A stretch of DNA of 64,000 nt from Burkholderiales bacterium (GCA_045810225.1 JBJMWI010000176.1:40583-104582), one strand, 5' to 3'; shown: positions 19,014 to 31,869, counted from the first letter of the stretch. Program-made: numbers and translations. Notes: generated from the sequence alone by a model not told the origin.

Positions 19014-20618
19014 TCAGGGCAGCGCGAACACCGTCACCGTCATTGATCCCGGCGGCCCGAGCCAGAATCCAGCAGCCATCCCGGAGACAGCAGCGACATA
19101 TTGTTTGCCCGCCACCCCATAACTAATCACACCGCCCACGATTGCGCCACCGCCGCTATAGCGATAGACGACCTTGCCGGTGCGTGCATCCAGTGCCAGG
19201 AAATCACCACTCAGTTCGCCGGTGAACAGCATGTCCCCCGAGGTCACAGTCACGGCGGCGAGCATTGGACGATTTGCCCGATAACGCCAAAGTTGCTCAC
19301 CGGTCGTCGCTTTCACGGCTGTCAGCCAGCCTGCGGATTTTTCCACCGGGTCCCAAGTAAAAGAGCCGCCGAGGAACTGCTGTCCTGCCACAAAGCGGGC
19401 CTCGTCTTCCTTCTTGAAAACGCCGCACCAGTCAACCGCTGGCACGACCATCAGGTCAAGCTTCGGACTGTAGGCCGGGACGCTCCATTCCACGCCGCCG
19501 GCCAGGCCGGGACAGGTATAGACGCCATCTTCGGTTGGTTCGCGATCGGCATTGGTACGCGTAGCGACTTCGACCGCGTAAAGTTCTTCGCGGGTATTGC
19601 GGTCCACCAGACGCATCACACCGTCTTTCGCCGCCATGGTGACCACATCGCGTGGCTTGCCGGCAATCGTGGCTTTGAACAGAGGCGCCGTGACCGGCAT
19701 ATCCCAATCATGCGTGTCGTGAGGCACCGCCTGTTTATGCCACAGCAGCGCGCCGGTGCGCACATCCAGCACGACGATGGAATTGGTGTAGAGATTGGTA
19801 CCCGGCCGCAGACTCCCAAACATATCGGGCGCTGGATTGCCGACCGCCACGTAAAGGCGTCCGCTGTTTACGTCGAGCGCTGGCGTAGTCCAGATGCCAC
19901 CGCCGCCTTTAAGCCGCGAATCTGCGTCGCCCCAGGTTTCCGCGCCGGCTTCACCATCGTCCGGAATCGTATTGAATCTCCAGACCGCAGCACCGTCTTC
20001 CAGCCTGAATGCGCCGATCCATCCCTTTACGCCGAACTCGGAGCCGGACGGGCCGATGATGACCAGGTCCTCAAACAACAGCGGATTGATCGAAAGTGCT
20101 TCGTATTTTTCGGCATTGGCCGCTTTGACCTCCCAGAGCAGCTTCCCCGTTTGTGCGTCGAGCGCAAACATCCACCCATCCTGTGCACCGCGTACTAGCT
20201 TGCCATCCTTGATGGCGACGCCGCGGTTCTTGATCGAGCCGTTTGCGTCCTTGCCCTTCGGCTTCCACTCGTGGCGCCATTTCACCTTGCAAGTTGCGGG
20301 ATCGAGTGCAATGGTCGAATAAAGCGTGGTGACATACATCACGCCGCCATAGACGATCGGGTTGTTCAGTGCACGGTTCAGGTCCGCGCCCTGAAAACTG
20401 CAAACGGGCCGTAGAGAAGCCGCGTTGTCGGGTCTGATCTGGCCCAGCTTTACATAGCGCACGCCGGCGTAATCATGATTCGGTAGCAACCATTCGGTAC
20501 TGGCCGACGCATTGTTGAGTTCTTCTTGCGTTGGTCCAGGCGCAGCGCGCGGCTGGCCGGAGAAGACTGCGACAAATACAATCAGCGTCAAAGCGTTCGA
20601 AGCGACAACCTTGCTCAT
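19014..20618 (-). CDS. periplasmic PQQ-dependent dehydrogenase (beta-propeller type without the vicinal Cys pair)
   Basis: Start at MSKVV (SD GAGGGGGA upstream). A signal peptide is followed by repeated W-docking propeller motifs (GKLLWE, AAVWRF, GALLWHK, GEQLWRY, GKVVYRY) and HDTHDWDM. Confidence 0.82.
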   Translation of the reverse strand: MSKVVASNALTLIVFVAVFSGQPRAAPGPTQEELNNASASTEWLLPNHDYAGVRYVKLGQIRPDNAASLRPVCSFQGADLNRALNNPIVYGGVMYVTTLYSTIALDPATCKVKWRHEWKPKGKDANGSIKNRGVAIKDGKLVRGAQDGWMFALDAQTGKLLWEVKAANAEKYEALSINPLLFEDLVIIGPSGSEFGVKGWIGAFRLEDGAAVWRFNTIPDDGEAGAETWGDADSRLKGGGGIWTTPALDVNSGRLYVAVGNPAPDMFGSLRPGTNLYTNSIVVLDVRTGALLWHKQAVPHDTHDWDMPVTAPLFKATIAGKPRDVVTMAAKDGVMRLVDRNTREELYAVEVATRTNADREPTEDGVYTCPGLAGGVEWSVPAYSPKLDLMVVPAVDWCGVFKKEDEARFVAGQQFLGGSFTWDPVEKSAGWLTAVKATTGEQLWRYRANRPMLAAVTVTSGDMLFTGELSGDFLALDARTGKVVYRYSGGGAIVGGVISYGVAGKQYVAAVSGMAAGFWLGPPGSMTVTVFALP

Positions 20619-20657
20619 GGTTTCTGATTCCCCCTCATGCATGACTTTCAGTCAAGT

Positions 20658-21068
20658 TCAATGCGGCTGCAGTGTGACCGCTTTCATCAGCGGCGCTTTC
20701 GGCACCAGCTCCTGCTCCCCGGCCGGGTAGTTGTTGACCTTCAGAATGAAGGCCACCACGTCGGCATACTGTGCTTTGCTGAGCGAACCGGGCGCGTTGT
20801 TGGGCATCAAGCTGCGGACAATGTAGTACAGATCGTCGAGCGTGTGCTTGCCATCTTCCCAGCGCGCACGAAAGGACTCCCCGGTGAGCGGTGCGGCGGG
20901 CGAACCCTGCAGCCGTGCGCCATGGCATGCCGAACAAAATTGCTGATAGGTTTCTTCGCCGCGCGAGGCCTGTGCCAGTGAATAGAACCCTTCCTCGGCC
21001 CCAGCGCTCAAAGCGCCAAGCACAAAGCATGTGGCCAGAAAAACACGAATGCAAATTTGTGCAGTCAC
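20658..21068 (-). CDS. c-type cytochrome (monohaem)
   Basis: 136 aa with a signal peptide and the haem-binding motif CSACH, plus a distal Met region. It ends 39 nt upstream of the PQQ dehydrogenase gene. Confidence 0.85.
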   Translation of the reverse strand: MTAQICIRVFLATCFVLGALSAGAEEGFYSLAQASRGEETYQQFCSACHGARLQGSPAAPLTGESFRARWEDGKHTLDDLYYIVRSLMPNNAPGSLSKAQYADVVAFILKVNNYPAGEQELVPKAPLMKAVTLQPH

Positions 21069-21087
21069 AAAAGGTCCCCCGAGCGCA

Positions 21088-21561
21088 TTACTGGAATCGC
21101 AGGACGTTTTCGGGCGCGTGAGTCGCAGATACGAATATTTTCCAGCCGTCGCCCGTTTTCCAAAAATGATAAGTCAGGCCGACCCGCTCCAGTATCGAGC
21201 CATCCAAGCGATAGCGGACCGCAACGCCGCTGGCCAGCGCGGTCTGCGCATCGAGCAGGCGGCCGTTCAGGGATTCCCATTCGCTACGCTCGTAACCCCG
21301 TTCAATCATGGCGCGTAAATAACCGGCGAAAAAAGCTTGCTGGTCGGCGCGAGTTGCACGAACAACAGGGCCCGCCTTGCTGACTCGCATCGCCGGCTCA
21401 AAATAGAACCCTGCGATGGCCTGAGCGTCATGCCGGCTCCACGCCTGCTCATACGCCTGCAACGTCTGGCGAACGTCTTCGAATGTCTCCTGCGCGGAGG
21501 CTGGAACGCTGGACATCAAAGTCCACATGCAAGCGACCGCAACTATTCGGATTGATCTCAT
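21088..21561 (-). CDS. exported NTF2-like (SnoaL/DUF4440-type) protein
   Basis: 157 aa with a signal peptide. LQAYEQAWSRHDAQAIAGFY...WKTGDGWKIF is the typical NTF2-like fold signature. Confidence 0.65.
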   Translation of the reverse strand: MRSIRIVAVACMWTLMSSVPASAQETFEDVRQTLQAYEQAWSRHDAQAIAGFYFEPAMRVSKAGPVVRATRADQQAFFAGYLRAMIERGYERSEWESLNGRLLDAQTALASGVAVRYRLDGSILERVGLTYHFWKTGDGWKIFVSATHAPENVLRFQ

Positions 21562-22590: not shown

Positions 22591-23583
22591 ATGATGCGAA
22601 CCTCCATACGCGTCGGCGTGCTGGATGACTGGCAAGGCATGGCCGAGCAAAGTGCCGACTGGGCCGCTCTGCAGCAACGGGCCGATGTCGTATTCTTCCA
22701 GGCGCCTTTTGAGGACGCGGACGCACTGGTGAACGCACTTGCCGCTTGCGACATCATCATCGCCATGCGCGAGCGCACCAGATTTTCCAGGGCGCTGCTG
22801 GAACGGCTGCCGAAACTGCGCATGATTGCGCTGACAGGCGGGCGTACCTGGACCATGGACTTCGATACGCTGAATGCGCGTGGCATTCCGGTATGTCATA
22901 CCGGCGGCGAAAAATCCGGTGCGGCGACCGCGGAAATCGCACTGGGGCTGTTGCTGTCTGCGGCGAGGTTCATGAACCGTGGCGATGCGTCGATACGCAG
23001 CGGCGGTTTTCAGGGCGGCGTGCCTGCGGGAAATGTGCTGGACGGGCGCACTCTGGGGATCATCGGTCTGGGCAAAATCGGCGCAAGAATGGCGCGTTAC
23101 GGACTGGCGCTCGGCATGCGGGTCATCGCATGGAGCGAGAACCTTACCGCCGAAAAAGCCAGCGCCGCGGGAGTGCTTCTCGTCGACAAGAGCACGCTTT
23201 TGCGCGAGTCGGACGCCATCTCGCTGCATCTGGTGCTAGCCGATCGCACGCGGGGCACGCTGGGTGCGAACGAGCTGGCGCAAATGAAATCCGGCGCAAT
23301 TCTGATCAATACTTCGCGTGGTCCGCTCGTGGACGAAGCGGCTCTGCTGCAGAATCTGCAGTCGGGCCGGCTCATTGCGGGACTCGATGTCTTCGAACAA
23401 GAGCCGTTACCGACCGATCATCCGTTGCGCAACCTGCCGAACACCGTGTTGACACCACACCTGGGTTATTGCGTGCGCGACGTGTACGCGCAGTTCTACC
23501 AAGAGTCGGTTGACAACGTGCTGTCATTTCTGGATGGCAAACCACAACGGGTTCTGAATCCCGAAGCGCTTAACAGCGCCTGA
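22591..23583 (+). CDS. D-isomer-specific 2-hydroxyacid dehydrogenase family protein
   Basis: 330 aa with GIIGLGKIGARMA (NAD-binding GxGxxG), a SLHLVL...T.G region, and NTSRGPLVDEAAL ... TPHLGY. Confidence 0.9.
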   Translation: MMRTSIRVGVLDDWQGMAEQSADWAALQQRADVVFFQAPFEDADALVNALAACDIIIAMRERTRFSRALLERLPKLRMIALTGGRTWTMDFDTLNARGIPVCHTGGEKSGAATAEIALGLLLSAARFMNRGDASIRSGGFQGGVPAGNVLDGRTLGIIGLGKIGARMARYGLALGMRVIAWSENLTAEKASAAGVLLVDKSTLLRESDAISLHLVLADRTRGTLGANELAQMKSGAILINTSRGPLVDEAALLQNLQSGRLIAGLDVFEQEPLPTDHPLRNLPNTVLTPHLGYCVRDVYAQFYQESVDNVLSFLDGKPQRVLNPEALNSA

Positions 23584-23626
23584 TTTCCCTCACACCGCGA
23601 TCTGTATTCAGGCGCGTCTCTGGTAG

Positions 23627-23649
23627 TTTTTGCAGGTTCTGTGCAAAAA
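23627..23649. promoter_or_regulatory. perfect 8-bp inverted repeat TTTTTGCA-N7-TGCAAAAA (candidate activator site)
   Basis: Read directly from the sequence. It lies about 70-90 bp upstream of the sigma-54-like element at 23719-23733. There is no T-tract after it, so it is unlikely to be a terminator. Confidence 0.3.
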
Positions 23650-23718
23650 GTACCGCCGCCAGTCCGTGATTGCCTTGCGTCCTGCGGTTAAAAACGCGCA
23701 AATTTGTCTGTAACCATC

Positions 23719-23733
23719 TGGCATATGACTTGC
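23719..23733 (+). promoter_or_regulatory. candidate sigma-54 (-24/-12) promoter
   Basis: TGGCAT-ATGAC-TTGC matches the TGGCAC-N5-TTGC consensus spacing. It lies about 70 nt upstream of the PQQ-ADH start codon. Confidence 0.4.
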
Positions 23734-23804
23734 GCAGGACTGCTGATGACTCTCCATCCGCGATTCTGCTTCGCGGACGTGAAGCGCCTCAGGAGATCGC
23801 AGGC

Positions 23805-25574
23805 ATGCCAGCTATTGCTGCAATGTGGACCCGCAATGCTTGGCCGGCTCTTTGGGCGGCATGCATCTCGATAAGCGCCGCCGCTGCTCCCGGCGATTGG
23901 CCTATGGTCGCAAAGGACTATGCCAATACCCGCTACAGCGAGCTGGGCGAGATCGGCGTTGCGAACGCAGCCAATCTGAAGCTCGCATTTACCTTCTCAA
24001 CCGGCGTGTTGCGTGGACACGAGGCAGCCCCGCTGGTCGTCGATGGCGTGATGTACATCGTCACGCCGTATCCGAACTACTTGTACGCACTCGACCTTAG
24101 CAAACCGGGTGCGCCCCAGAAGTGGAAATACGAGCCTAAGCCGCTAGCGTTTGCACAAGGGATGGCGTGCTGCGACGTCGTCAACCGCGGCGTGGCTTAT
24201 GCCGACGGCCGCATTTTTATGAACACGCTTGATAACCATACCATTGCGGTCGATGCCAAGACCGGAAAGGAACTGTGGCGTACGCGTCTGGGAGATGTTG
24301 CGCTCGGGGAATCGATGACCATGGCGCCGCTGGTGGTCAAGGACAAGGTACTGGTCGGCAACAGCGGCGGCGAATATGGTGTGCGCGGCTGGCTGGCGGC
24401 CTTGGATGCGAAGTCCGGCAAAATCGTCTGGCGGGCATACAGCACAGGACCCGATAACGAAGTTCTGATTGGTCAGGAGTTCAAGCCGTTCTATTCCCAG
24501 GACCAAGGAAAAGACCTCGGCGTGTCGAGCTGGCCACCGGAGGCATGGCGCATTGGCGGAGGTGCCGTTTGGGGATTCGTCTCTTACGACGAAAAACTTA
24601 ATCTCATCTATTACGGGACCTCGAATCCGTCTCCCTGGAATCCCGAGCAACGGCCGGGTGATAACAAATGGACTTCGGGAATCTTCGCCCGCAACCCGGA
24701 CACCGGCGCAGCGCGCTGGTTCTACCAGACCAGCCCGCATGATCTGCACGACTATGACGGCATCAATGAAAACGTGCTGTTCGATCTGCCGGCTGGCGGT
24801 GGATCACGTTCGGCCCTGATGCATCCTGATCGCAACGGCTATCTTTATGTCGTCGATCGTGCCACCGGCGAAGTCATCAGCGCGCGACCATACGCACACA
24901 TCACCACGTCGCATGGTGTGGATGCCGCCAGCGGACGACTGCAGTACGTGAAGGATAAGGAACCGAAAGCCGGCAAGGTCATACGCACGATTTGCCCGTC
25001 TTCGTCCGGCGCAAAAGATTGGCAGCCGTCAGCCTATTCGCCGAAAACCGGCTGGCTGTATCTATCAATTCAAAACCTGTGTCAGGACATGGAGGCGACC
25101 AAAGCAAACTACATTGCGGGCACGCCATTTGTGGGCAGCGACCAGAAGATGTACACCGGACCCGGCGGCAACCGCGGCGAATTCGCGGCATGGGAGCCAG
25201 TGGAGGGCCGCAAGAAGTGGAGCATTCCCGAAAAATTTCCGGTCTGGAGTGGTGCGCTGGTGACAGCGGGCGACGTGGTGTTCTACGGCACCATGGAAGG
25301 CTGGTTCAAAGCTGTTGATGCCAGGACAGGGGCGTTGCTGTGGCGCTTTAAAACCGGTTCCGGGATCGTAGGCCAGCCCATCTCCTATCTCGGCCCCGAT
25401 GGCAAACAATATGTGGCGGTGTTGTCCGGCGTGGGGGGATGGGCGGGATCAGTGGTCAGTGCCGATATCGACACGCGCGACGGCACGGCTGCACTGGGAT
25501 TTGCCAACGCCATGCGCGACCTGCCGTCCGAGACCGGCATGGGCGGCATGCTGTACGTGTTCGCGCTGCCATGA
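23805..25574 (+). CDS. PQQ-dependent methanol/ethanol-family dehydrogenase with a lanthanide-type (XoxF/ExaF/PedH-like) active-site signature
   Basis: Start at the ATG 23805 (AGGAGA upstream), with a signal peptide. Vicinal cysteines ACCDVVNRG are at 24168-24173. GNSGGEYGVRGW is present, and D-Y-D is at 24750-24758 (HDLHDYDGINE). Confidence 0.9.
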   Translation: MPAIAAMWTRNAWPALWAACISISAAAAPGDWPMVAKDYANTRYSELGEIGVANAANLKLAFTFSTGVLRGHEAAPLVVDGVMYIVTPYPNYLYALDLSKPGAPQKWKYEPKPLAFAQGMACCDVVNRGVAYADGRIFMNTLDNHTIAVDAKTGKELWRTRLGDVALGESMTMAPLVVKDKVLVGNSGGEYGVRGWLAALDAKSGKIVWRAYSTGPDNEVLIGQEFKPFYSQDQGKDLGVSSWPPEAWRIGGGAVWGFVSYDEKLNLIYYGTSNPSPWNPEQRPGDNKWTSGIFARNPDTGAARWFYQTSPHDLHDYDGINENVLFDLPAGGGSRSALMHPDRNGYLYVVDRATGEVISARPYAHITTSHGVDAASGRLQYVKDKEPKAGKVIRTICPSSSGAKDWQPSAYSPKTGWLYLSIQNLCQDMEATKANYIAGTPFVGSDQKMYTGPGGNRGEFAAWEPVEGRKKWSIPEKFPVWSGALVTAGDVVFYGTMEGWFKAVDARTGALLWRFKTGSGIVGQPISYLGPDGKQYVAVLSGVGGWAGSVVSADIDTRDGTAALGFANAMRDLPSETGMGGMLYVFALP

Positions 25575-26110
25575 AACAGTGCATGCGCTCGCTGGCATGT
25601 GCTGGTGCTGTTGCGCTGGCACTGTGCGCATGCAAGCGTGAGCAGCGGGCCTTCGAACAATCGCCTTCACCGACAGAGTTGGCTCTCAAGAGCGGCATTT
25701 CGCTGCCTTCCTCCACGCCGACCGCAAAGCCAAGCGGATCCTACGAGGAAACCGCCTACGCCATAGCGCAAGGCAAGCAGCTATTCAACTGGTTCAACTG
25801 CACGGGTTGTCACTCGCATGGCGGCGGAGGAATCGGTCCGCCGTTGATGGATGACAAGTGGATTTACGGACATGAGCCGGGCGAAATATTTTCAACCATC
25901 GTAGAAGGCCGGCCAAACGGCATGCCTTCCTTCCGCGGCCGCCTGGATGATTCCCAGGTGTGGCAGCTGGTGGCCTATGTGCGCTCGATGAGCGCACTGG
26001 TGCGTCGCGACGCCATCGCGGGCCGGGATGACGGCATCCAGAAAGGAAAGCCGGAACAGCGGCGCTCCCGTGCCGAGCCGCGGAACAGCAGCGAGGCACC
26101 GCCTCAATGA
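25571..26110 (+). CDS. lipoprotein c-type cytochrome
   Basis: ATGA overlap with the ADH stop. MKQCMRSLACAGAVALALCAC is lipobox-like. Haem motif CTGCH is present, with MPSF as a likely distal Met region. Confidence 0.85.
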   Translation: MKQCMRSLACAGAVALALCACKREQRAFEQSPSPTELALKSGISLPSSTPTAKPSGSYEETAYAIAQGKQLFNWFNCTGCHSHGGGGIGPPLMDDKWIYGHEPGEIFSTIVEGRPNGMPSFRGRLDDSQVWQLVAYVRSMSALVRRDAIAGRDDGIQKGKPEQRRSRAEPRNSSEAPPQ

Positions 26111-27132
26111 ACAGCATTCGGCGCATCGGCTTGTGTCTGCCATCCCTGTTGCTCATGGCGCGGAATGCCCCGGCCGCGGATACGCAAAACGCACTGATGC
26201 CGTTTGGAGTGCAGGCCGCGCACATTCATGACCTGTGGCAAATCCTGTTGTGGGCATGCATGGTCTTCGGGATCCTCATCGTAATTGCAGTGACAGTGGC
26301 CCTCTGGCGTGCTCCGCGCAGTAGCGAAACCACACCGCCAGAACCGATGCCCGGTTTACAGAAGTCGAGCCAGTACGTCGTGACGTGCGCATTGGGAGTT
26401 TCCATCATCGGCTTGCTCGGCCTCACAGTCGCGAGCGTCATGACAGACCGTGCGCTGGCTGGCTTGTCCGAGGAGCGCGTCGTCAACATCAAGATCACGT
26501 CACACAATTGGTGGTGGGAAATCACCTACGACGACGCACAGGCTTCGCGCACTTTCACGACAGCCAATGAGTTGCATGTCCCGACCGGCCGCCCGGTCGT
26601 TGCGACGCTGGAGTCAGATGACGTGATTCACAGTTTCTGGGTGCCGAACCTGCATGGCAAGCGCGACCTGATTCCCGGCAGAACAGCGAAAATAAAATTC
26701 CGTGCGGACAGCGCCGGCACTTACCGGGGCCAGTGTGCGGAATTTTGTGGATACCAACACGCGCACATGGCGCTGCTCGTCGTTGCGGAGCCCGCAGAGG
26801 CATATGAAAAGTGGGCGGACCAGCAGCGCGCTTCGGCGCATGCGCCGGCCGATGAGCAAAAGAAACACGGGGAATCCCTGTTCTTATCCTCGCGCTGCGC
26901 CATGTGCCATTCAATTCAGGGCACCAGCGCCAACGGCAAGGTCGCGCCGGATCTCACCCATGTCGGCAGCCGGCGCTATATCGCTGCCGGGACGCTCTTG
27001 AATGGCCCCGCTCAGCTTGCTGCCTGGATTTCCGACCCGCAACGTTATAAGCCGGGATGCAATATGCCGGGGACCAGCTTTTCCTCTGAAGATCTGCAGG
27101 CACTGGTTACGTACCTGCAAAGCCTGACATGA
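26107..27132 (+). CDS. coxB: cytochrome c oxidase subunit II with a fused C-terminal cytochrome c domain (caa3-like)
   Basis: ATGA overlap upstream. CuA motif HSFWVP...CAEFCGYQHAHM. The C-terminal domain carries the haem motif CAMCH. Confidence 0.9.
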   Translation: MNSIRRIGLCLPSLLLMARNAPAADTQNALMPFGVQAAHIHDLWQILLWACMVFGILIVIAVTVALWRAPRSSETTPPEPMPGLQKSSQYVVTCALGVSIIGLLGLTVASVMTDRALAGLSEERVVNIKITSHNWWWEITYDDAQASRTFTTANELHVPTGRPVVATLESDDVIHSFWVPNLHGKRDLIPGRTAKIKFRADSAGTYRGQCAEFCGYQHAHMALLVVAEPAEAYEKWADQQRASAHAPADEQKKHGESLFLSSRCAMCHSIQGTSANGKVAPDLTHVGSRRYIAAGTLLNGPAQLAAWISDPQRYKPGCNMPGTSFSSEDLQALVTYLQSLT

Positions 27133-29045
27133 GTTCCATTGCGGGACTTTCAGATACCGATGCAGGAAAACGGGCCGCGCTGGAGCGCGCATGGGGCGAT
27201 CGCCCGGGTTTGATCGGATGGCTAGCAAGCGTGGACCACAAGGCGATCGCACGCCGTTTCCTGGTATCGGCATTCGGTTTTTTTGTTGCCGCCGGTCTGC
27301 TGGCGGCATTGATGCGACTGCAACTTGCCATTCCGAACAACACGCTGGTCGGCCCGGATTTGTACAACCAATTGTTCACGGTGCACGGCACCACGATGAT
27401 GTTCATATTCGCGGTTCCTGTCATGCAGGCCATGGGCCTGTATCTGGTGCCGTTGATGGTTGGAACGCGCAACATCGCGTTCCCGCGCATGAACGCGTAT
27501 GCGTACTGGCTCTATTTATTCGGCGGGCTGATGTTGTACGTCGCGCTCATTCTCAACGTTGGCCCGGATGCCGGATGGTTCAGTTATGTCCCTCTGGCCG
27601 GCCCTGAATATGGCACGGGCAAGCGTTCGGATTTCTGGGCGCAGCTGATTACCTTTACGGAAGTATCTTCGCTGCTGGTTGCGGTTTCGATCATTACTAC
27701 CGCATTCAAACTACGCGCTCCCGGCATGGCGCTGCATCGGCTGCCGCTGTTCGTATGGGCGCTTGTAGTGACCTCTTTCATGATCCTGTTCGCAATGCCG
27801 GCCGTGATGTTTGCCAGCACGGCATTGATCACCGACCGGCTCGTCGGCACGCATTTCTACAACCCGGCCGAAGGCGGTGATGCCCTGCTGTGGCAGCACC
27901 TGTTTTGGTTCTTCGGACATCCCGAGGTGTACATCATTTTCATTCCTGCGTTGGGCATGATGTCGTCCATCATTGCGACTTTTTCGCGCCGGCCCATCTT
28001 CGGTTATGTCGCCATGGTCATGGCGCTGATCGCGACCGCGTTTCTCGGCTTTGGTTTGTGGGTACATCATATGTTTGCCACGAATGTGCCGGAGCTTGGC
28101 AAGAGCTTCTTCACCGCGGTCAGCATGATGATCGCGATCCCGAGCGCATTGCAGATTTTCTGCTGGATTGCGACACTGTGGACCGGCCGGATCAATTTCC
28201 GCACGCCATTGCTATTTGTACTTGCTTTCTTCGTGATCCTGCTGCTTGGGGGATTCACCGGACTGATGCTTGCTGCCGTGCCACTTGACCTGCAGGTGCA
28301 CGATACTTATTTTGTCGTTGCACATCTGCACTACGTGTTGATCGGCGGTGCGGTGTTTCCCCTGTTCGGTGCATTCTATTTCTGGTTCCCTAAGATTACC
28401 GGACGTCTCATGAACGAAAAGCTCGGGCACTGGAATTTCTGGCTGTTTTTTGTCGGTTTCAATGTTGCGTTCTTCCCGATGCATTATCTGGGTCTGCAAG
28501 GCATGCCGAGGCGCGTATATACCTATCCTGCCGATATGGGCTGGGGAACACTGAATTTCGTTGCGACCATGGGCGCGATAATGATTGCGGTGAGCGTCCT
28601 GCTGTTCATCATCAACGTAGTGCGCAGCCTGCGTTCCGGAACCCGCGCCGGCGACAATCCGTGGGGCGCGGCAACATTGGAGTGGGCGGTCCCTTCCCCG
28701 CCACCGCCCTACAATTTTGCGAACATCCCGGTTGTTGGCGGTCGTGAACCGCTTTGGGAAACAGGTGGCATCAGCGGACATGTGGAAGGCTTATCCTGCA
28801 AGTCGCCCGAGTTGCTGATTACACGCGTACTGGACGGTTCACCGGATCACCGTCAGCTGTTTCCGGCTCCATCGATTTGGCCGTTTGTAAGCGCGGTCGC
28901 CACGACGGCTTTGTTCATCGCCAGTATCTTTTCTCCATGGGCGGTGGTTTGGGGCAGCATTCCGGTAGCCATCGCGCTCACGGCCTGGTTCTGGCCGGAC
29001 CGGCGTGAAACTGAAGAACATCAGACACTGGAGCGCCGCCCGTGA
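27129..29045 (+). CDS. ctaD: cytochrome c oxidase subunit I
   Basis: 638 aa with WQHLFWFFGHPEVYI, VWVHHMF and VAHLHYVLIGG, the canonical haem-copper oxidase subunit I blocks. Confidence 0.95.
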   Translation: MSSIAGLSDTDAGKRAALERAWGDRPGLIGWLASVDHKAIARRFLVSAFGFFVAAGLLAALMRLQLAIPNNTLVGPDLYNQLFTVHGTTMMFIFAVPVMQAMGLYLVPLMVGTRNIAFPRMNAYAYWLYLFGGLMLYVALILNVGPDAGWFSYVPLAGPEYGTGKRSDFWAQLITFTEVSSLLVAVSIITTAFKLRAPGMALHRLPLFVWALVVTSFMILFAMPAVMFASTALITDRLVGTHFYNPAEGGDALLWQHLFWFFGHPEVYIIFIPALGMMSSIIATFSRRPIFGYVAMVMALIATAFLGFGLWVHHMFATNVPELGKSFFTAVSMMIAIPSALQIFCWIATLWTGRINFRTPLLFVLAFFVILLLGGFTGLMLAAVPLDLQVHDTYFVVAHLHYVLIGGAVFPLFGAFYFWFPKITGRLMNEKLGHWNFWLFFVGFNVAFFPMHYLGLQGMPRRVYTYPADMGWGTLNFVATMGAIMIAVSVLLFIINVVRSLRSGTRAGDNPWGAATLEWAVPSPPPPYNFANIPVVGGREPLWETGGISGHVEGLSCKSPELLITRVLDGSPDHRQLFPAPSIWPFVSAVATTALFIASIFSPWAVVWGSIPVAIALTAWFWPDRRETEEHQTLERRP

Positions 29046-29659
29046 ATCCTGCCGCTGGCGATGCAACACAAATCGTCGATGCCTCCGCGCTTCCCAGCCA
29101 TGCCTTCGGCCATCGCAGCATGATGTGGTGGGGTGTCATGGGTATGATTGCGATAGAAGGCACGGTCTTCGCGCTGGCGATTGCAGTTTATCTATACGTT
29201 CGCAAGGATTTCACCGAATGGCCGCCGGTCGCACGGCCGCCGGAGCTGTTTTGGGGAACGCTGAATACGCTCATCCTGATTGTCAGCATGGTTCCCAACC
29301 AGTGGGCAAAGCGCGCGGCCGAGCGTTATGACGCCCGTAAGGTTAAATGGGCGCTGGTCGTCTGCCTGATTTTTTCAGCGGCGTTCCTGGCGGTGCGAGT
29401 ACTCGAGTTCAGCAGCCTGAACACCCGCTGGGATACTAACGCCTACGGATCCGCGATCTGGATGCTGTTGGGCCTGCATACCCTGCACCTGCTGACCGAT
29501 ACTTACGATACCGCAGTATTGACTGCGCTGATGTGGTTTGGTCCGGTAGAAGACAAGCGTTTCGTCGATGTTAGCGAGAGCGCGGTGTACTGGTATTTCG
29601 TTGTCATTGCCTGGCTGCCGATCTATGCGATCATCTATTTCGGCGCGCGCCTGCTGTAG
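29042..29659 (+). CDS. cytochrome c oxidase subunit III family protein
   Basis: GTGA overlap with the ctaD stop. 205 aa polytopic membrane protein with the subunit III-like C-terminal helices (LGLHTLHLLTD, AVYWYFVVIAWL). Confidence 0.82.
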   Translation: MNPAAGDATQIVDASALPSHAFGHRSMMWWGVMGMIAIEGTVFALAIAVYLYVRKDFTEWPPVARPPELFWGTLNTLILIVSMVPNQWAKRAAERYDARKVKWALVVCLIFSAAFLAVRVLEFSSLNTRWDTNAYGSAIWMLLGLHTLHLLTDTYDTAVLTALMWFGPVEDKRFVDVSESAVYWYFVVIAWLPIYAIIYFGARLL

Positions 29660-29678
29660 GGGATCGGTGTCGGTGGGC

Positions 29679-29972
29679 ATGCTGGTCGCGCCTTGCGTAC
29701 TGCTGCTCCAGTTGACAATCGCCTATGCCGTGGTGCACTTGAGTTGCGCAAACGGCCTGCCGGCTTCCGTTCTGCATTCGGTATTTGCCGCTGCATTGCT
29801 CGTTACGCTGCTGATGCTTGGGTTGGCATGGCATGCATGGCGCGTTGCGGTCACAGGGCATGAGCGCTTCCTGAATCAACTCAGTCTTGCACTGAGTGCG
29901 CTGGTTGTACTGGTGATAGCGGCGCAGTGGGTGACCGTCAGTATCCTTCAGCCATGCGTTTCGTCTTTGTAA
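29679..29972 (+). CDS. small hydrophobic protein (possible oxidase subunit IV-like)
   Basis: About 97 aa with three predicted TM helices. The position between subunit III and the assembly factor is the only functional evidence. Confidence 0.45.
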   Translation: MLVAPCVLLLQLTIAYAVVHLSCANGLPASVLHSVFAAALLVTLLMLGLAWHAWRVAVTGHERFLNQLSLALSALVVLVIAAQWVTVSILQPCVSSL

Positions 29973-30832
29973 TAGCGGCGTTGTGCGCCGGGCAGGCGTA
30001 TGCACACACGCTGGAAAGCATACGATCTTCGGGTCTGGAGTCATGGCTGGTGTGCCTGCTACTCGCAGCGGCTGGGCTGTATGCAATTGGAGTGCGCCGG
30101 CTTTGGCTGGCAGCTGGACCAAACCGCGGCGTTACGTCCTATCGAATCGCTGCTTTTGCGGGCGGGTGGACGGTGCTCACGCTGGCGTTGATGCCACCGC
30201 TCGATCCACTGGGCGCAAAGCTGTTCAGTGCGCATATGCTGCAGCACGAATTGTTGATGCTGGTCGCCGCGCCGCTACTGGTAGCGGGAAGTCCCCTGGC
30301 CGTCTGGGCGTGGGCACTGCCGCTGCGCTGGCGCCGCTCGATCCCGCTCTTCACGCACGCGCGCGGATTTGCGGCCTTCTGGGCAACATTGACAGCCCCC
30401 CTTGCGGCTTGGCTTCTGCACGCGGCGGCTATCTGGCTTTGGCATGTTCCCGGGTTGTTCACCGCTGCCCTGGAACATGAAGGCATTCACGTCCTGCAGC
30501 ATTTCAGCTTTCTGTTTTCAGCGCTGGTGTTCTGGTGGGCGGCAACACGCACAACATCCCCGGCCGGCACAGCAGCCTGCATATTTTCTTTGTTTACCAC
30601 CATGGTCCATACCGGCGCGTTGGGTGCGCTGCTGGTATTTGCGCCAAGCACGTGGTATCCCGTCTACGGATCCGCGTCACTACCGTGGGGGCTTCAACCA
30701 TTGGAAGATCAGCAACTCGGCGGGCTGATCATGTGGATTCCGGGTGGTCTGGTGTATGCCGGCGTGGCCATTGCACTGATGGCACGCTGGCTGAATATGC
30801 ATTCGCGGTCCGGCCTGCAACGGCCGGCATAG
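29954..30832 (+). CDS. cytochrome c oxidase assembly factor, CtaG (caa3-type) family membrane protein
   Basis: Polytopic protein with SAHMLQHELLMLVAAPLL and HVLQHFSFLFSALVFWW blocks typical of Caa3_CtaG proteins. The start is set at MRFVFV. Confidence 0.78.
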   Translation: MRFVFVIAALCAGQAYAHTLESIRSSGLESWLVCLLLAAAGLYAIGVRRLWLAAGPNRGVTSYRIAAFAGGWTVLTLALMPPLDPLGAKLFSAHMLQHELLMLVAAPLLVAGSPLAVWAWALPLRWRRSIPLFTHARGFAAFWATLTAPLAAWLLHAAAIWLWHVPGLFTAALEHEGIHVLQHFSFLFSALVFWWAATRTTSPAGTAACIFSLFTTMVHTGALGALLVFAPSTWYPVYGSASLPWGLQPLEDQQLGGLIMWIPGGLVYAGVAIALMARWLNMHSRSGLQRPA

Positions 30833-30834
30833 AT

Positions 30835-31869
30835 CTACCGCGGTGGTTCCGTCATGGCCGGTCTGGCCTCGATCACGCTCCACGGCGTGCCCGTAGCGAT
30901 CACACGCTGCAACTCGAAGCCCGACTCGCGCAGCAAGCCACGGTATTCGGATTCGGTGCGCTCCTTGCCACCGTGGTTCGTCATCATCATATGCAGATCG
31001 ATGAGCTTGGCCGACGAGGGCTCGTTGCCCGGTGGCACAATGCGTTCGCAGATCAGCAGGCGCGCATCGGGCGACATTGCCTTGCGGCAATTGCCGAGTA
31101 TCGCTGCGCATTCTGCATCGCCCCAATCGTGCAAGACATGCTTCATGAAGTAGGCGTCCGTGCCAGGTGGTACTGCTTCGAAGAAACTGCCTGCGGAAAA
31201 TTCACAGCGCTGCGTCAAGCCCTGCGCCGCGATAAAAGCGCGCGCGCGTAGCGCAACGTGCGGCAGATCGAACACGATGCCGCGCAGTTGCGGTGTGGTC
31301 TTGAGGATGGCGCAAAGCGCCGAGCCGGTTCCGCCGGCAACATCGAGCACGCTGGTAAAACCGGAGAAATCGTAAGCTTCGGCGACGGCGGCGTTGGTGG
31401 TTGATGAGGCGCTCGCCATGGCACGATCGAACATCGCAGCGGTATCGGCATGGCTTTGCAGAAAATCGAAAAACGTTTCGCCATAGATATGCTCGAATGG
31501 CGCCTCGCCCGAACGCACCGCGTGAAGTATGCCTTCCCACGAGCGCCATGAGGTTTCATCACCGAACAGCAATACCAGGTCGCGCAGTGAACCGGGCACA
31601 TCACTGCGCAAGAGTTCTGATAACGCCGTGTTCATGAAACGATGGTCTTCGTCCTCGCGAAAGACCTGCGACGCCGCCAGTACGCGCAGCACCCGGTAGA
31701 GCGACGGAGCATGCGCGCCGACGGCCTGCGCAAGCTCTTCGATGGTTTTGCTGCCGGCGCTCAACACGCCGGCGACATCGAGCGCGGCAACCGCATACAA
31801 CGCACGCGAGGTGAAATACTGCGTGATCATGCCGCGCATTAGCGCGGCGTCTTCAGCGGCGTGCGACAT
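30835..31869 (-). CDS. class I SAM-dependent O-methyltransferase (family 2, with dimerisation domain)
   Basis: LDVAGGTGSAL (SAM motif I), FDLPHV and FMKHVLHDW match plant/Streptomyces-type small-molecule OMTs. Confidence 0.85.
   Translation of the reverse strand: MSHAAEDAALMRGMITQYFTSRALYAVAALDVAGVLSAGSKTIEELAQAVGAHAPSLYRVLRVLAASQVFREDEDHRFMNTALSELLRSDVPGSLRDLVLLFGDETSWRSWEGILHAVRSGEAPFEHIYGETFFDFLQSHADTAAMFDRAMASASSTTNAAVAEAYDFSGFTSVLDVAGGTGSALCAILKTTPQLRGIVFDLPHVALRARAFIAAQGLTQRCEFSAGSFFEAVPPGTDAYFMKHVLHDWGDAECAAILGNCRKAMSPDARLLICERIVPPGNEPSSAKLIDLHMMMTNHGGKERTESEYRGLLRESGFELQRVIATGTPWSVIEARPAMTEPPR

What the first reader, a model, noticed from the sequence alone, without database searches (positions are those of the whole stretch)
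23805..30832. PQQ-ADH, its own cytochrome c and a complete caa3-like oxidase chained by four consecutive 4-nt start/stop overlaps
Four successive gene junctions overlap by 4 nt:
- ADH stop / cytochrome c start: ATGA at 25571-25574.
- Cytochrome c / coxB: ATGA at 26107-26110.
- coxB / ctaD: ATGA at 27129-27132.
- ctaD / subunit III: GTGA at 29042-29045.

A small membrane ORF and a Caa3-CtaG assembly factor follow. Subunit II itself carries a fused cytochrome c domain (CAMCH).

This reads as one translationally coupled unit that encodes a whole periplasm-to-O2 electron path: quinoprotein, then lipoprotein cytochrome c, then the cytochrome c domain of subunit II, then CuA and haem a/a3. Quinoprotein ADH genes are usually found with only a cytochrome c (the exaB/xoxG type). 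A hard-wired dedicated terminal oxidase is, to my knowledge, not the textbook arrangement.
Basis: partly seen in the sequence, partly recalled or inferred. Interest (0 to 1): 0.6.

Follow-up and report, generated by a model that had tools for sequence, protein, structure and literature searches.

The report
Known XoxF3 methanol dehydrogenase-oxidase operon
This is a tightly packed seven-gene operon that joins a lanthanide-type methanol (alcohol) dehydrogenase to its own membrane-tethered cytochrome c and its own oxygen-reducing cytochrome oxidase; it is real and strongly conserved, but the arrangement is already published as the 'XoxF3 system', and nobody has yet tested how it works.

Summary
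All four 4-nt start/stop overlaps are at the stated coordinates and every gene identity is confirmed.

The 'ADH' is a XoxF-type lanthanide methanol dehydrogenase (D-Y-D motif; best solved relative is SolV XoxF).

The linkage is not chance:
- Among 80 metagenome contigs carrying its closest relatives (62-94% identity), cytochrome c follows in 48 of 49, coxB in 36 of 37 and ctaD in 29 of 29, wherever enough DNA is present.
- The same order occurs in Ramlibacter, Sphingomonas, Rokubacteria and Gemmatimonadales genomes.
- The coxB/ctaD and ctaD/coxIII overlaps are themselves conserved (41 of 45 and 30 of 33).

The arrangement is already in the literature as the XoxF3 system: Keltjens 2014, as cited by Voutsinos et al. 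2024 (PMC10875860), and a 2024 review figure. This scan has also met it at least 12 times on other DNA.

Specific to this copy:
- It lacks xoxJ.
- It fills a variable slot between flanks that five congeners keep without it.

The oxidase clade lacks the canonical proton-channel residues: K362 is Gln, and N121 and D132 are replaced.

This is a new member of a known kind, of modest interest.

The parts
23719..23733 (+). Sigma-54-like -24/-12 element TGGCAT-N5-TTGC, 72 nt upstream of the xoxF start. A candidate promoter only.
   Evidence: Sequence read. The strict pattern TGGYAY-N5-TTGC lies upstream of xoxF in 6 of 72 related loci, against about 0.18 expected from background. It is not conserved in most relatives.
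23805..25574 (+). xoxF: periplasmic PQQ, lanthanide-type methanol/alcohol dehydrogenase, 589 aa. Features: signal peptide, vicinal C122-C123, E190, N274, D316-Y-D318. AGGAG lies at 23791-23795.
   Evidence: TIGR03075 at 637 bits. Best solved relative is 4MAE, the SolV XoxF, at 650 bits, with the D-Y-D-G, GGE and SNP motifs aligned. Residue positions.
25571..26110 (+). Lipoprotein monohaem cytochrome c, 179 aa. Lipobox L-C-A-C21, a Pro/Ser-rich linker of about 45 residues, and CTGCH at residue 77.
   Evidence: Pfam Cytochrome_CBB3 and Cytochrom_C. Nearest solved relative is the C-terminal haem domain of CcoP at 61 bits; cytochrome cL gives only 35 bits. The lipobox plus C-x-R-E-x-R motif is present in all 30 orthologues as well.
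26107..27132 (+). coxB: oxidase subunit II with two hydrophobic segments, a CuA centre and a fused C-terminal cytochrome c domain.
   Evidence: TIGR02866 at 153 bits, plus Pfam COX2 and Cytochrom_C. CAEFCGYQHAHM at residue 210 and CAMCH at 264. Both motifs are present in all orthologues.
27129..29045 (+). ctaD: A-family subunit I, 638 aa, with a C-terminal extension of about 95 residues. Haem and CuB ligands, E266 and Y268 are kept. The proton-channel positions are L104 (N121), N115 (D132), S339 (T359) and Q342 (K362), in R. sphaeroides numbering.
   Evidence: TIGR02891 at 704 bits. Alignment to 6ADQ, and a match to T. thermophilus caa3 (2YEV) spanning residues 31-633. Residue tables.
29042..29659 (+). 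Short subunit III, 205 aa, GTG start overlapping the ctaD stop.
   Evidence: Pfam COX3 matches residues 59-200 to profile positions 112-255. The same overlap is possible in 30 of 33 relatives.
29676..29972 (+). Conserved small membrane protein, 98 aa, three hydrophobic segments, function unknown.
   Evidence: No Pfam or NCBIfam match, even at E = 5. tblastn relatives at 30-39% identity lie in the same position in L008, L011, L017, L104, L118, L142 and L162. [quoted passage not shown].
29927..30832 (+). Caa3-type CtaG (CuB insertion factor). The likelier start is the ATG at 29954. Its stop lies 2 nt from the stop of the convergent O-methyltransferase gene.
   Evidence: PF09678 at 191 bits. Sequence.

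Best explanation
This is a member of the XoxF3-type dehydrogenase-plus-oxidase gene clusters, here in a Burkholderiales-like metagenome-assembled genome.

Inferred mechanism:
1. The exported XoxF enzyme, with PQQ and a lanthanide ion, oxidises methanol or a similar small alcohol in the periplasm.
2. It passes single electrons to a cytochrome c that is tethered to the inner membrane by a lipid anchor and a flexible linker.
3. That cytochrome reduces the cytochrome c domain fused to oxidase subunit II.
4. Electrons then run through CuA, haem a and haem a3-CuB to O2.

The seven genes are made as one unit. Start/stop overlaps tie translation of neighbouring genes together, and CtaG loads CuB.

Shown here: gene identities, cofactor motifs, the lipobox, the overlaps, the near-invariant linkage in relatives, and presence of PQQ synthesis genes.

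Inferred only: the substrate, the order of electron carriers, how exclusive the wiring is, and co-transcription.
For: Gene and motif identities.

Linkage starting from the dehydrogenase:
- Of 80 metagenome contigs with the closest relatives, cytochrome c follows in 48 of 49, coxB in 36 of 37 and ctaD in 29 of 29, where enough DNA follows.
- In a sample of 299 good-quality genomes of the order, all 9 XoxF hits at E <= 1e-200 are followed by cytochrome c, and 7 by coxB plus ctaD.

Linkage starting from the oxidase: named genomes from Beta- and Alphaproteobacteria, Rokubacteria and Gemmatimonadales show the same order.

Overlapping junctions are conserved in relatives.

Pairwise distances of XoxF, cytochrome c, CoxB and CtaD correlate at r = 0.80-0.85.

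All 30 cytochrome c orthologues, like the window's copy, are lipoproteins.

The genome has pqqC and pqqE and the formaldehyde-handling genes fae and mch.

[quoted passage not shown] A review figure shows the same genes (PMC11845868).
Against: - There is no transcript or biochemical evidence. XoxF3 enzymes have never been characterised (stated in PMC10875860).
- The cytochrome c fails the curated XoxG/cL and PedF models.
- xoxJ, present between xoxF and cytochrome c in 41 of 54 relatives, is missing here. The only xoxJ in the genome lies with a second xoxF on another contig.
- The oxidase lacks the canonical K-channel lysine and D-channel entrance residues. It may not behave like a standard proton-pumping aa3 or caa3 oxidase.
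- The genome has two canonical A-family oxidases that could also take the electrons.
- I could not place the protein against labelled XoxF3 reference sequences.
Confidence: 0.78

Rival explanations
1. The genes are co-regulated but not exclusively wired. They are kept together because both are needed under the same conditions. Electrons from XoxF enter the general periplasmic cytochrome c pool and reach any oxidase, and this oxidase also serves other donors.
For: - The same cytochrome c plus oxidase cluster occurs without any XoxF. In three Rhizobiales it sits next to an FdhF/YdeP-family molybdoenzyme. In Caballeronia and Paraburkholderia it occurs without the cytochrome c gene.
- The genome has two canonical oxidases and a second xoxF with xoxJ.
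Against: - Linkage seen from the dehydrogenase side is nearly invariant (48 of 49, 36 of 37, 29 of 29).
- The four proteins co-vary.
- A lipid-tethered cytochrome c suits a local relay better than a diffusible pool.
Confidence: 0.15
2. The oxidase is a low-coupling or non-pumping electron sink, or an O2-scavenging or protective enzyme, rather than an energy-conserving terminal oxidase. Its role would be to keep XoxF re-oxidised, not to make proton-motive force.
For: - K362 is Gln in 29 of 30 clade members. N121 is always hydrophobic. D132 is Asn, Ser or Ala in most.
- The genome's own two other CtaD proteins keep N, D, T and K.
- A-family oxidases without the K-channel lysine have a published precedent in the iron-oxidiser rus-operon oxidases (10.1101/2020.03.01.968255).
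Against: - E286, Y288 and all metal ligands are kept, so O2 reduction chemistry is intact.
- Charge separation alone would still conserve energy.
- Other residues might form substitute proton paths. I did not model the structure.
Confidence: 0.3
3. The juxtaposition in this particular genome is a chance product of insertion into a variable slot and has no functional meaning.
For: Five congeners keep the SDR and 2-hydroxyacid dehydrogenase genes on one side and the O-methyltransferase and beta-lactamase-like genes on the other. Between them they hold 1.1-4.2 kb of unrelated genes instead of this module.
Against: The whole seven-gene unit, not its parts, is what recurs in distant genomes. The slot explains where the unit landed, not why its genes sit together.
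Confidence: 0.02

Closest known systems
XoxF3 systems with cox and ctaG genes (Keltjens et al. 2014, as cited in Voutsinos et al. 2024, BMC Biol 22:41, PMC10875860; figure legend in PMC11845868)
   Same: - A lanthanide-type XoxF is followed on one strand by cytochrome c, CoxII, CoxI, CoxIII, a small hypothetical membrane protein and a Caa3-type CtaG.
- The taxonomic range is the same: Proteobacteria, Gemmatimonadetes, Rokubacteria and Acidobacteria.
   Different: - This copy has no xoxJ and only one cytochrome c gene.
- It has no Nramp or TonB-receptor genes beside it.
- It is in a Burkholderiales-like genome, where it fills a variable slot.
- Its clade label was not tested here against labelled reference sequences.
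Canonical xoxFGJ / mxaFJGI methanol oxidation clusters (Methylobacterium extorquens and others)
   Same: A periplasmic PQQ methanol dehydrogenase is encoded next to its cytochrome c acceptor. The lanthanide-binding Asp is present, as in XoxF.
   Different: - Canonical clusters carry no oxidase genes.
- Their acceptor is a soluble XoxG or cL-type cytochrome, and electrons pass through cytochrome cH to a separately encoded oxidase (established knowledge).
- Here the cytochrome is a lipoprotein that fails the MoxG model (42 bits against a cut-off of 148).
- This genome also has a canonical-looking second xoxF with xoxJ next to fae and mch on contig C87.
rus operon of Acidithiobacillus ferrooxidans (cyc2-cyc1-coxBACD-rus)
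   Same: - One operon encodes a whole periplasm-to-O2 electron path, including a dedicated A-family oxidase.
- A Caa3-type CtaG is present in some relatives.
- The oxidase lacks the K-channel lysine (10.1101/2020.03.01.968255).
   Different: - The electron donor is Fe(II), passed through an outer-membrane cytochrome and rusticyanin, not a quinoprotein.
- The lysine is replaced by Ile there and by Gln here.
- The D-channel is reported as conserved there and is altered here.
- I did not test whether the two oxidase groups are related.
Thermus thermophilus caa3 oxidase (PDB 2YEV)
   Same: Subunit II is fused to a cytochrome c domain. Subunit I extends beyond the usual end of the protein; the window's CtaD residues 31-633 match 2YEV chain A residues 18-610.
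   Different: - In 2YEV, subunits I and III are fused in one 791-residue chain. Here subunit III is a separate 205-aa protein.
- This enzyme keeps the A1-type GHPEVY glutamate.
- It lacks the canonical K-channel lysine.
Pseudomonas exaAB / ped quinoprotein ethanol oxidation clusters
   Same: A PQQ alcohol dehydrogenase is encoded next to a dedicated cytochrome c550.
   Different: - No oxidase genes are present in those clusters.
- The enzyme belongs to a different clade: PedH (6ZCW) scores 320 bits against 650 for XoxF.
- The PedF model scores only 19 bits against a cut-off of 122.

Membership tests
XoxF-type lanthanide-dependent PQQ methanol dehydrogenase | Eight-bladed PQQ propeller of the methanol/ethanol family | tested here: met
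   TIGR03075 scores 637 bits against a cut-off of 480.
XoxF-type lanthanide-dependent PQQ methanol dehydrogenase | An extra Asp two residues after the catalytic Asp (D-x-D; Asp301 in SolV numbering), plus the vicinal Cys pair and the Glu and Asn metal ligands | tested here: met
   D316-Y-D318, C122-C123, E190 and N274 align with the corresponding residues of 4MAE.
XoxF-type lanthanide-dependent PQQ methanol dehydrogenase | Lanthanide-dependent methanol oxidation activity | not testable with these tools
   This needs enzyme assays. No member of the XoxF3 group has been characterised (PMC10875860).
XoxF3 clade / XoxF3 system | Placement inside the XoxF3 clade in a tree with labelled reference sequences | not testable with these tools
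   - No labelled XoxF3 sequences were available. The paper's supplement holds only identifiers.
- By elimination, solved XoxF2 (650 bits), XoxF5 (592 and 562 bits), XoxF1 (553 bits) and MxaF (547 bits or less) are all more distant than the oxidase-linked relatives at 62-94% identity.
- One paper reports Trp instead of Tyr between the two Asp residues for its XoxF3 group (PMC8561711). This protein has Tyr.
XoxF3 clade / XoxF3 system | Gene neighbourhood: cytochrome c, CoxII, CoxI, CoxIII, a small hypothetical membrane protein and CtaG downstream of xoxF | tested here: met
   All are present in that order, as described in PMC10875860.
XoxF3 clade / XoxF3 system | xoxJ (periplasmic binding protein) inside the cluster | tested here: not met
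   No xoxJ match anywhere in the window. 13 of 54 relatives likewise lack it. Published descriptions do not treat xoxJ as universal.
A-family haem-copper cytochrome c oxidase | Six His ligands, the cross-link Tyr, and a CuA site in subunit II | tested here: met
   CtaD has H86, H264, H313, H314, H399, H401 and Y268. CoxB has CAEFCGYQHAHM.
A-family haem-copper cytochrome c oxidase | Canonical D- and K-channel residues (N121, D132, E286; T359, K362) | tested here: not met
   The residues are L104, N115, E266, S339 and Q342. K362 is Gln in 29 of 30 clade members, while the genome's other two CtaD proteins are canonical.
XoxG / cytochrome cL family | Score above the curated MoxG (TIGR03872) or PedF (TIGR04494) cut-off | tested here: not met
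   MoxG scores 41.8 bits against 147.8, and PedF 19.2 against 122. The nearest solved relatives are CcoP haem domains.

The most novel reading that the evidence does not exclude
The oxidases that travel with XoxF-type dehydrogenases may be a distinct, mobile class of A-family enzymes that have given up the canonical proton-uptake routes.
- In this clade K362 is Gln and N121 and D132 are replaced.
- In a second dehydrogenase-linked clade, E286 is Trp (GHPWVY) and K362 is Ala.

Together with the lipid-tethered cytochrome c, they would form a self-contained, horizontally transferable alcohol-to-oxygen cassette with unusual energy coupling. The same oxidase module can also be paired with other dehydrogenases, for example an FdhF/YdeP-type molybdoenzyme in Rhizobiales.
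Probability: 0.3. Interest if true: 0.6.

Novelty: new member of a known kind. Interest (0 to 1): 0.3.

Why it matters
XoxF3-type enzymes are among the most abundant methanol dehydrogenase genes in soils and weathered rock (PMC10875860). None has been studied biochemically.

A dedicated oxidase would mean that methanol-derived electrons bypass the shared respiratory chain. This affects how much energy soil bacteria gain from atmospheric or plant-derived methanol.

This copy is compact and lacks xoxJ. Close relatives of its dehydrogenase occur in culturable genera: proteins named from Variovorax soli and Massilia agilis are about 70% identical, and Ramlibacter sp. AN1133 carries the full cluster (L014). 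Such strains would be practical starting points for testing the wiring and the odd proton-channel residues.

Tried and rejected
- Internal signals: sigma-70-like promoter and terminator scans inside the unit gave counts at or below the shuffled expectation (2 against 3.0; 7 against 8.0). This is uninformative either way.
- Labelled XoxF3 reference sequences: the Voutsinos supplement has only contig names, and the Keltjens 2014 review is not held.
- Insertion scars: there are no direct or inverted repeats of 9 nt or more between the two borders of the module, and no GC shift.
- The small ORF: no family match, even at E = 5.
- A corrected inference: I first read the tblastn coordinates as showing that the overlaps were peculiar to this lineage. 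An explicit test of start codons at each upstream stop showed they are widely conserved, so I dropped that reading.
- 'Chance juxtaposition' was rejected by the synteny counts.
- A nitric-oxide-reductase reading of the oxidase was rejected because the cross-link Tyr and E286 are kept, whereas the newly described HCO families proposed as NO reductases in PMC11214002 lack the active-site Tyr.
Full report
**Observation**

The four junctions are exactly as described: ATGA at 25571-25574, 26107-26110 and 27129-27132, and GTGA at 29042-29045. Profile searches confirm every gene:
- a PQQ methanol/ethanol-family dehydrogenase (TIGR03075, 637 bits);
- a monohaem cytochrome c;
- CoxB with a CuA site and a fused cytochrome c domain;
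- CtaD (TIGR02891, 704 bits);
- a short subunit III;
- a 98-aa membrane ORF with no family match;
- a Caa3-type CtaG.

The packing continues past the four overlaps. There is a 16-nt gap before the small ORF, and ctaG overlaps that ORF. The ctaG stop lies 2 nt from the stop of a convergent O-methyltransferase gene.

**Is the run of overlaps more than chance?**

In this genome, 14.4% of 2177 same-strand ORF pairs allow a 4-nt overlap. Runs of four occur twice, against about 0.9 expected under independence. The run alone is therefore weak evidence.

The stronger evidence is that the same overlaps recur in relatives:

| Junction | 4-nt overlap possible |
|---|---|
| coxB/ctaD | 41 of 45 |
| ctaD/coxIII | 30 of 33 |
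| cyt c/coxB | 37 of 56 |
| xoxJ/cyt c | 28 of 44 |
| xoxF/cyt c (clusters without xoxJ) | 7 of 18 |
| xoxF/xoxJ | 10 of 65 |

**What the dehydrogenase is**

Its best solved relative is the lanthanide enzyme XoxF of Methylacidiphilum fumariolicum SolV (4MAE, 650 bits). Other XoxF and MxaF structures follow. Ethanol dehydrogenases such as PedH are far behind at 320 bits.

The catalytic and metal residues align: C122-C123, E190, N274 and D316-Y-D318. D318 is the extra Asp that marks lanthanide enzymes.

The genome carries pqqC and pqqE. Contig C87 holds a second xoxF (47-48% identical) with xoxJ, close to fae and mch. The organism therefore looks able to handle C1 compounds and has two separate XoxF systems. 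In all it has ten PQQ-dehydrogenase paralogues and four COX1 homologues.

**Is the linkage conserved?**

Starting from CtaD, a scan of species-representative genomes found the same order, xoxF-(xoxJ)-cyt c-coxB-ctaD-coxIII-ctaG, in several taxa:
- Ramlibacter sp. AN1133;
- a Proteobacteria metagenome-assembled genome;
- a Sphingomonas genome;
- a Rokuibacteriota genome;
- a Gemmatimonadales genome.

One congener, G003, carries the same order as far as its short contig reaches (xoxF-cyt c-coxB-ctaD, with CtaD 96% identical).

Starting from the dehydrogenase, I examined 80 metagenome contigs carrying its closest relatives (62-94% identity). Counting only contigs with enough downstream DNA, cytochrome c follows in 48 of 49, coxB in 36 of 37 and ctaD in 29 of 29. 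There was a single exception, L138.

In a sample of 299 good-quality genomes of the same order, only 8 have such a XoxF. All 9 hits are followed by cytochrome c, and 7 by coxB plus ctaD.

Pairwise distances of the four proteins correlate at r = 0.80-0.85. This fits inheritance as a unit, although genes that share genomes would correlate anyway.

In 41 of 54 relatives an SBP_bac_3 protein (XoxJ) sits between xoxF and cytochrome c. The window belongs to the 13 of 54 minority without it.

**Already known**

Voutsinos et al. 2024 (PMC10875860) describe XoxF3 systems of Acidobacteria, Gemmatimonadetes and Verrucomicrobia. [quoted passage not shown] They credit Keltjens et al. 2014 with first noting cox and ctaG genes in xoxF3 operons. 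A 2024 review figure of XoxF gene clusters lists cox and CtaG among its gene labels (PMC11845868).

The scan's own notebook holds at least 12 earlier findings of the same arrangement in other genomes. Every one with a follow-up was judged to be the known XoxF3 system.

I could not place this protein against labelled XoxF3 references. The label therefore rests on the neighbourhood signature, the taxon range, and exclusion of the solved XoxF1, XoxF2, XoxF5 and MxaF groups.

**The cytochrome c**

It fails the curated MoxG and PedF models and most resembles the haem domains of CcoP.

All 30 orthologues with a recoverable cytochrome c gene, like the window's own copy, have a lipobox followed by C-x-R-E-x-R and a long linker before the haem domain. 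This supports a membrane-tethered relay.

The cytochrome also accompanies the oxidase genes in three Rhizobiales loci that have no XoxF. It belongs to the oxidase module at least as much as to the dehydrogenase.

**The oxidase is not a standard aa3**

All metal ligands, E286 and the cross-link Tyr are kept. The K-channel lysine is Gln (Q342), T359 is Ser, N121 is Leu and D132 is Asn.

Across the clade, K362 is Gln in 29 of 30 sequences, N121 is always hydrophobic, and D132 is Asn, Ser or Ala in most. The two other A-family CtaD proteins of this genome are canonical.

A published precedent exists for A-family oxidases without the K-channel lysine, in the rus-operon enzymes of iron oxidisers (10.1101/2020.03.01.968255). 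An earlier agent of this scan noted the same loss in another genome.

A second, more distant type of dehydrogenase-linked oxidase occurs in G015, G205 and G108. It has GHPWVY in place of GHPEVY, and Ala at K362.

Whether these enzymes pump protons is unknown.

**Genomic setting**

Only one other of the 24 congeneric species genomes searched with CtaD (G003) carries this oxidase.

Five congeners keep the flanking genes: an SDR and a 2-hydroxyacid dehydrogenase on one side, and an O-methyltransferase and a beta-lactamase-like gene on the other. Between them they hold 1.1-4.2 kb of unrelated genes instead of the 7.25-kb module. The module therefore occupies a variable slot and was probably gained as a unit. 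I found no border repeats and no GC shift.

**Limits**

Consensus promoter and terminator scans are uninformative. A sigma-54-like element 72 nt upstream of xoxF recurs in only 6 of 72 relatives, although that is well above background. Substrate, electron path and coupling are inferences.

**Verdict**

The arrangement is already published and has been met repeatedly in this scan. It is a new member of a known kind. The remaining open points are the absence of xoxJ here, the apparent mobility of the module, and the non-canonical proton-channel residues.

Noticed in passing
window 27129-29045 (CtaD residues L104, N115, S339, Q342): The XoxF-linked oxidase clade lacks the canonical proton-channel residues. 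K362 is Gln in 29 of 30 members, N121 is hydrophobic, and D132 is mostly Asn, Ser or Ala. E286, Y288 and the metal ligands are kept. The same genome's two other CtaD proteins are canonical.
   Followed up: partly
L173 (G015:C84), L180 (G205:C29), L181 (G108:C9): A second type of dehydrogenase-plus-oxidase cluster. A XoxF-like enzyme (55-58% identical, D-Y-D motif) is followed by cytochrome c, coxB and a CtaD with GHPWVY (E286 is Trp) and Ala at K362, while N121 and D132 are kept. One carrier is in the window's own genus.
   Followed up: partly
L016:5933-8347, L020:5794-8388, L074:5938-8343: In three Rhizobiales genomes (Mesorhizobium loti, a Rhizobiales bacterium and Xaviernesmea oryzae), the homologous cytochrome c-coxB-ctaD-coxIII-ctaG cluster is preceded on the same strand by an FdhF/YdeP-family molybdopterin oxidoreductase (TIGR01701, more than 1000 bits) instead of XoxF. 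Caballeronia catudaia (L022) has one on the opposite strand.
   Followed up: partly
L168:10001-14185 (Methylocaldum sp. MAG): A reduced variant: xoxF, xoxJ, cytochrome c, a COX3-like 198-aa protein and a 133-aa ORF, with no coxB or ctaD.
   Followed up: no
window 23583-30835 versus L182-L186: The space between the 2-hydroxyacid dehydrogenase gene and the O-methyltransferase operon is a variable slot in this genus. Different species hold a methyltransferase, a metallophosphoesterase-like ORF, a hydrolase with a quinone oxidoreductase, or a LysR regulator with a ThDP enzyme. These labels are my own reading of the translations; no profile search was run on them.
   Followed up: partly
window 23719-23733: A sigma-54-like TGGCAT-N5-TTGC element lies upstream of xoxF. 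The strict pattern recurs upstream of xoxF in 6 of 72 related loci, against about 0.18 expected. Four of those loci share the identical sequence TGGTACGCTCCTTGC.
   Followed up: partly
window 19014-21561 (minus strand): A second quinoprotein module lies just upstream: an NTF2-like protein (DUF6841), a monohaem cytochrome c, and a 542-aa PQQ dehydrogenase that is 35% identical to the XoxF. A TctC-family binding protein and an amidohydrolase follow.
   Followed up: partly
G000 contig C87:1927-20518: A methylotrophy island elsewhere in the genome: mch, fae, a second xoxF (47-48% identical) and xoxJ, with room for a xoxG-sized gene between the last two.
   Followed up: partly
window 30830-30837: The stop codons of ctaG and the convergent O-methyltransferase gene are only 2 nt apart. 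This leaves no room for a terminator between the two units.
   Followed up: no
L178 (G161:C34:51500-65000), L138: Exceptions to the rule. L178 has xoxF, xoxJ, cytochrome c and a coxB-like gene but no ctaD within 9.6 kb downstream. L138 has 3.5 kb downstream of xoxF without any of the partner genes.
   Followed up: no
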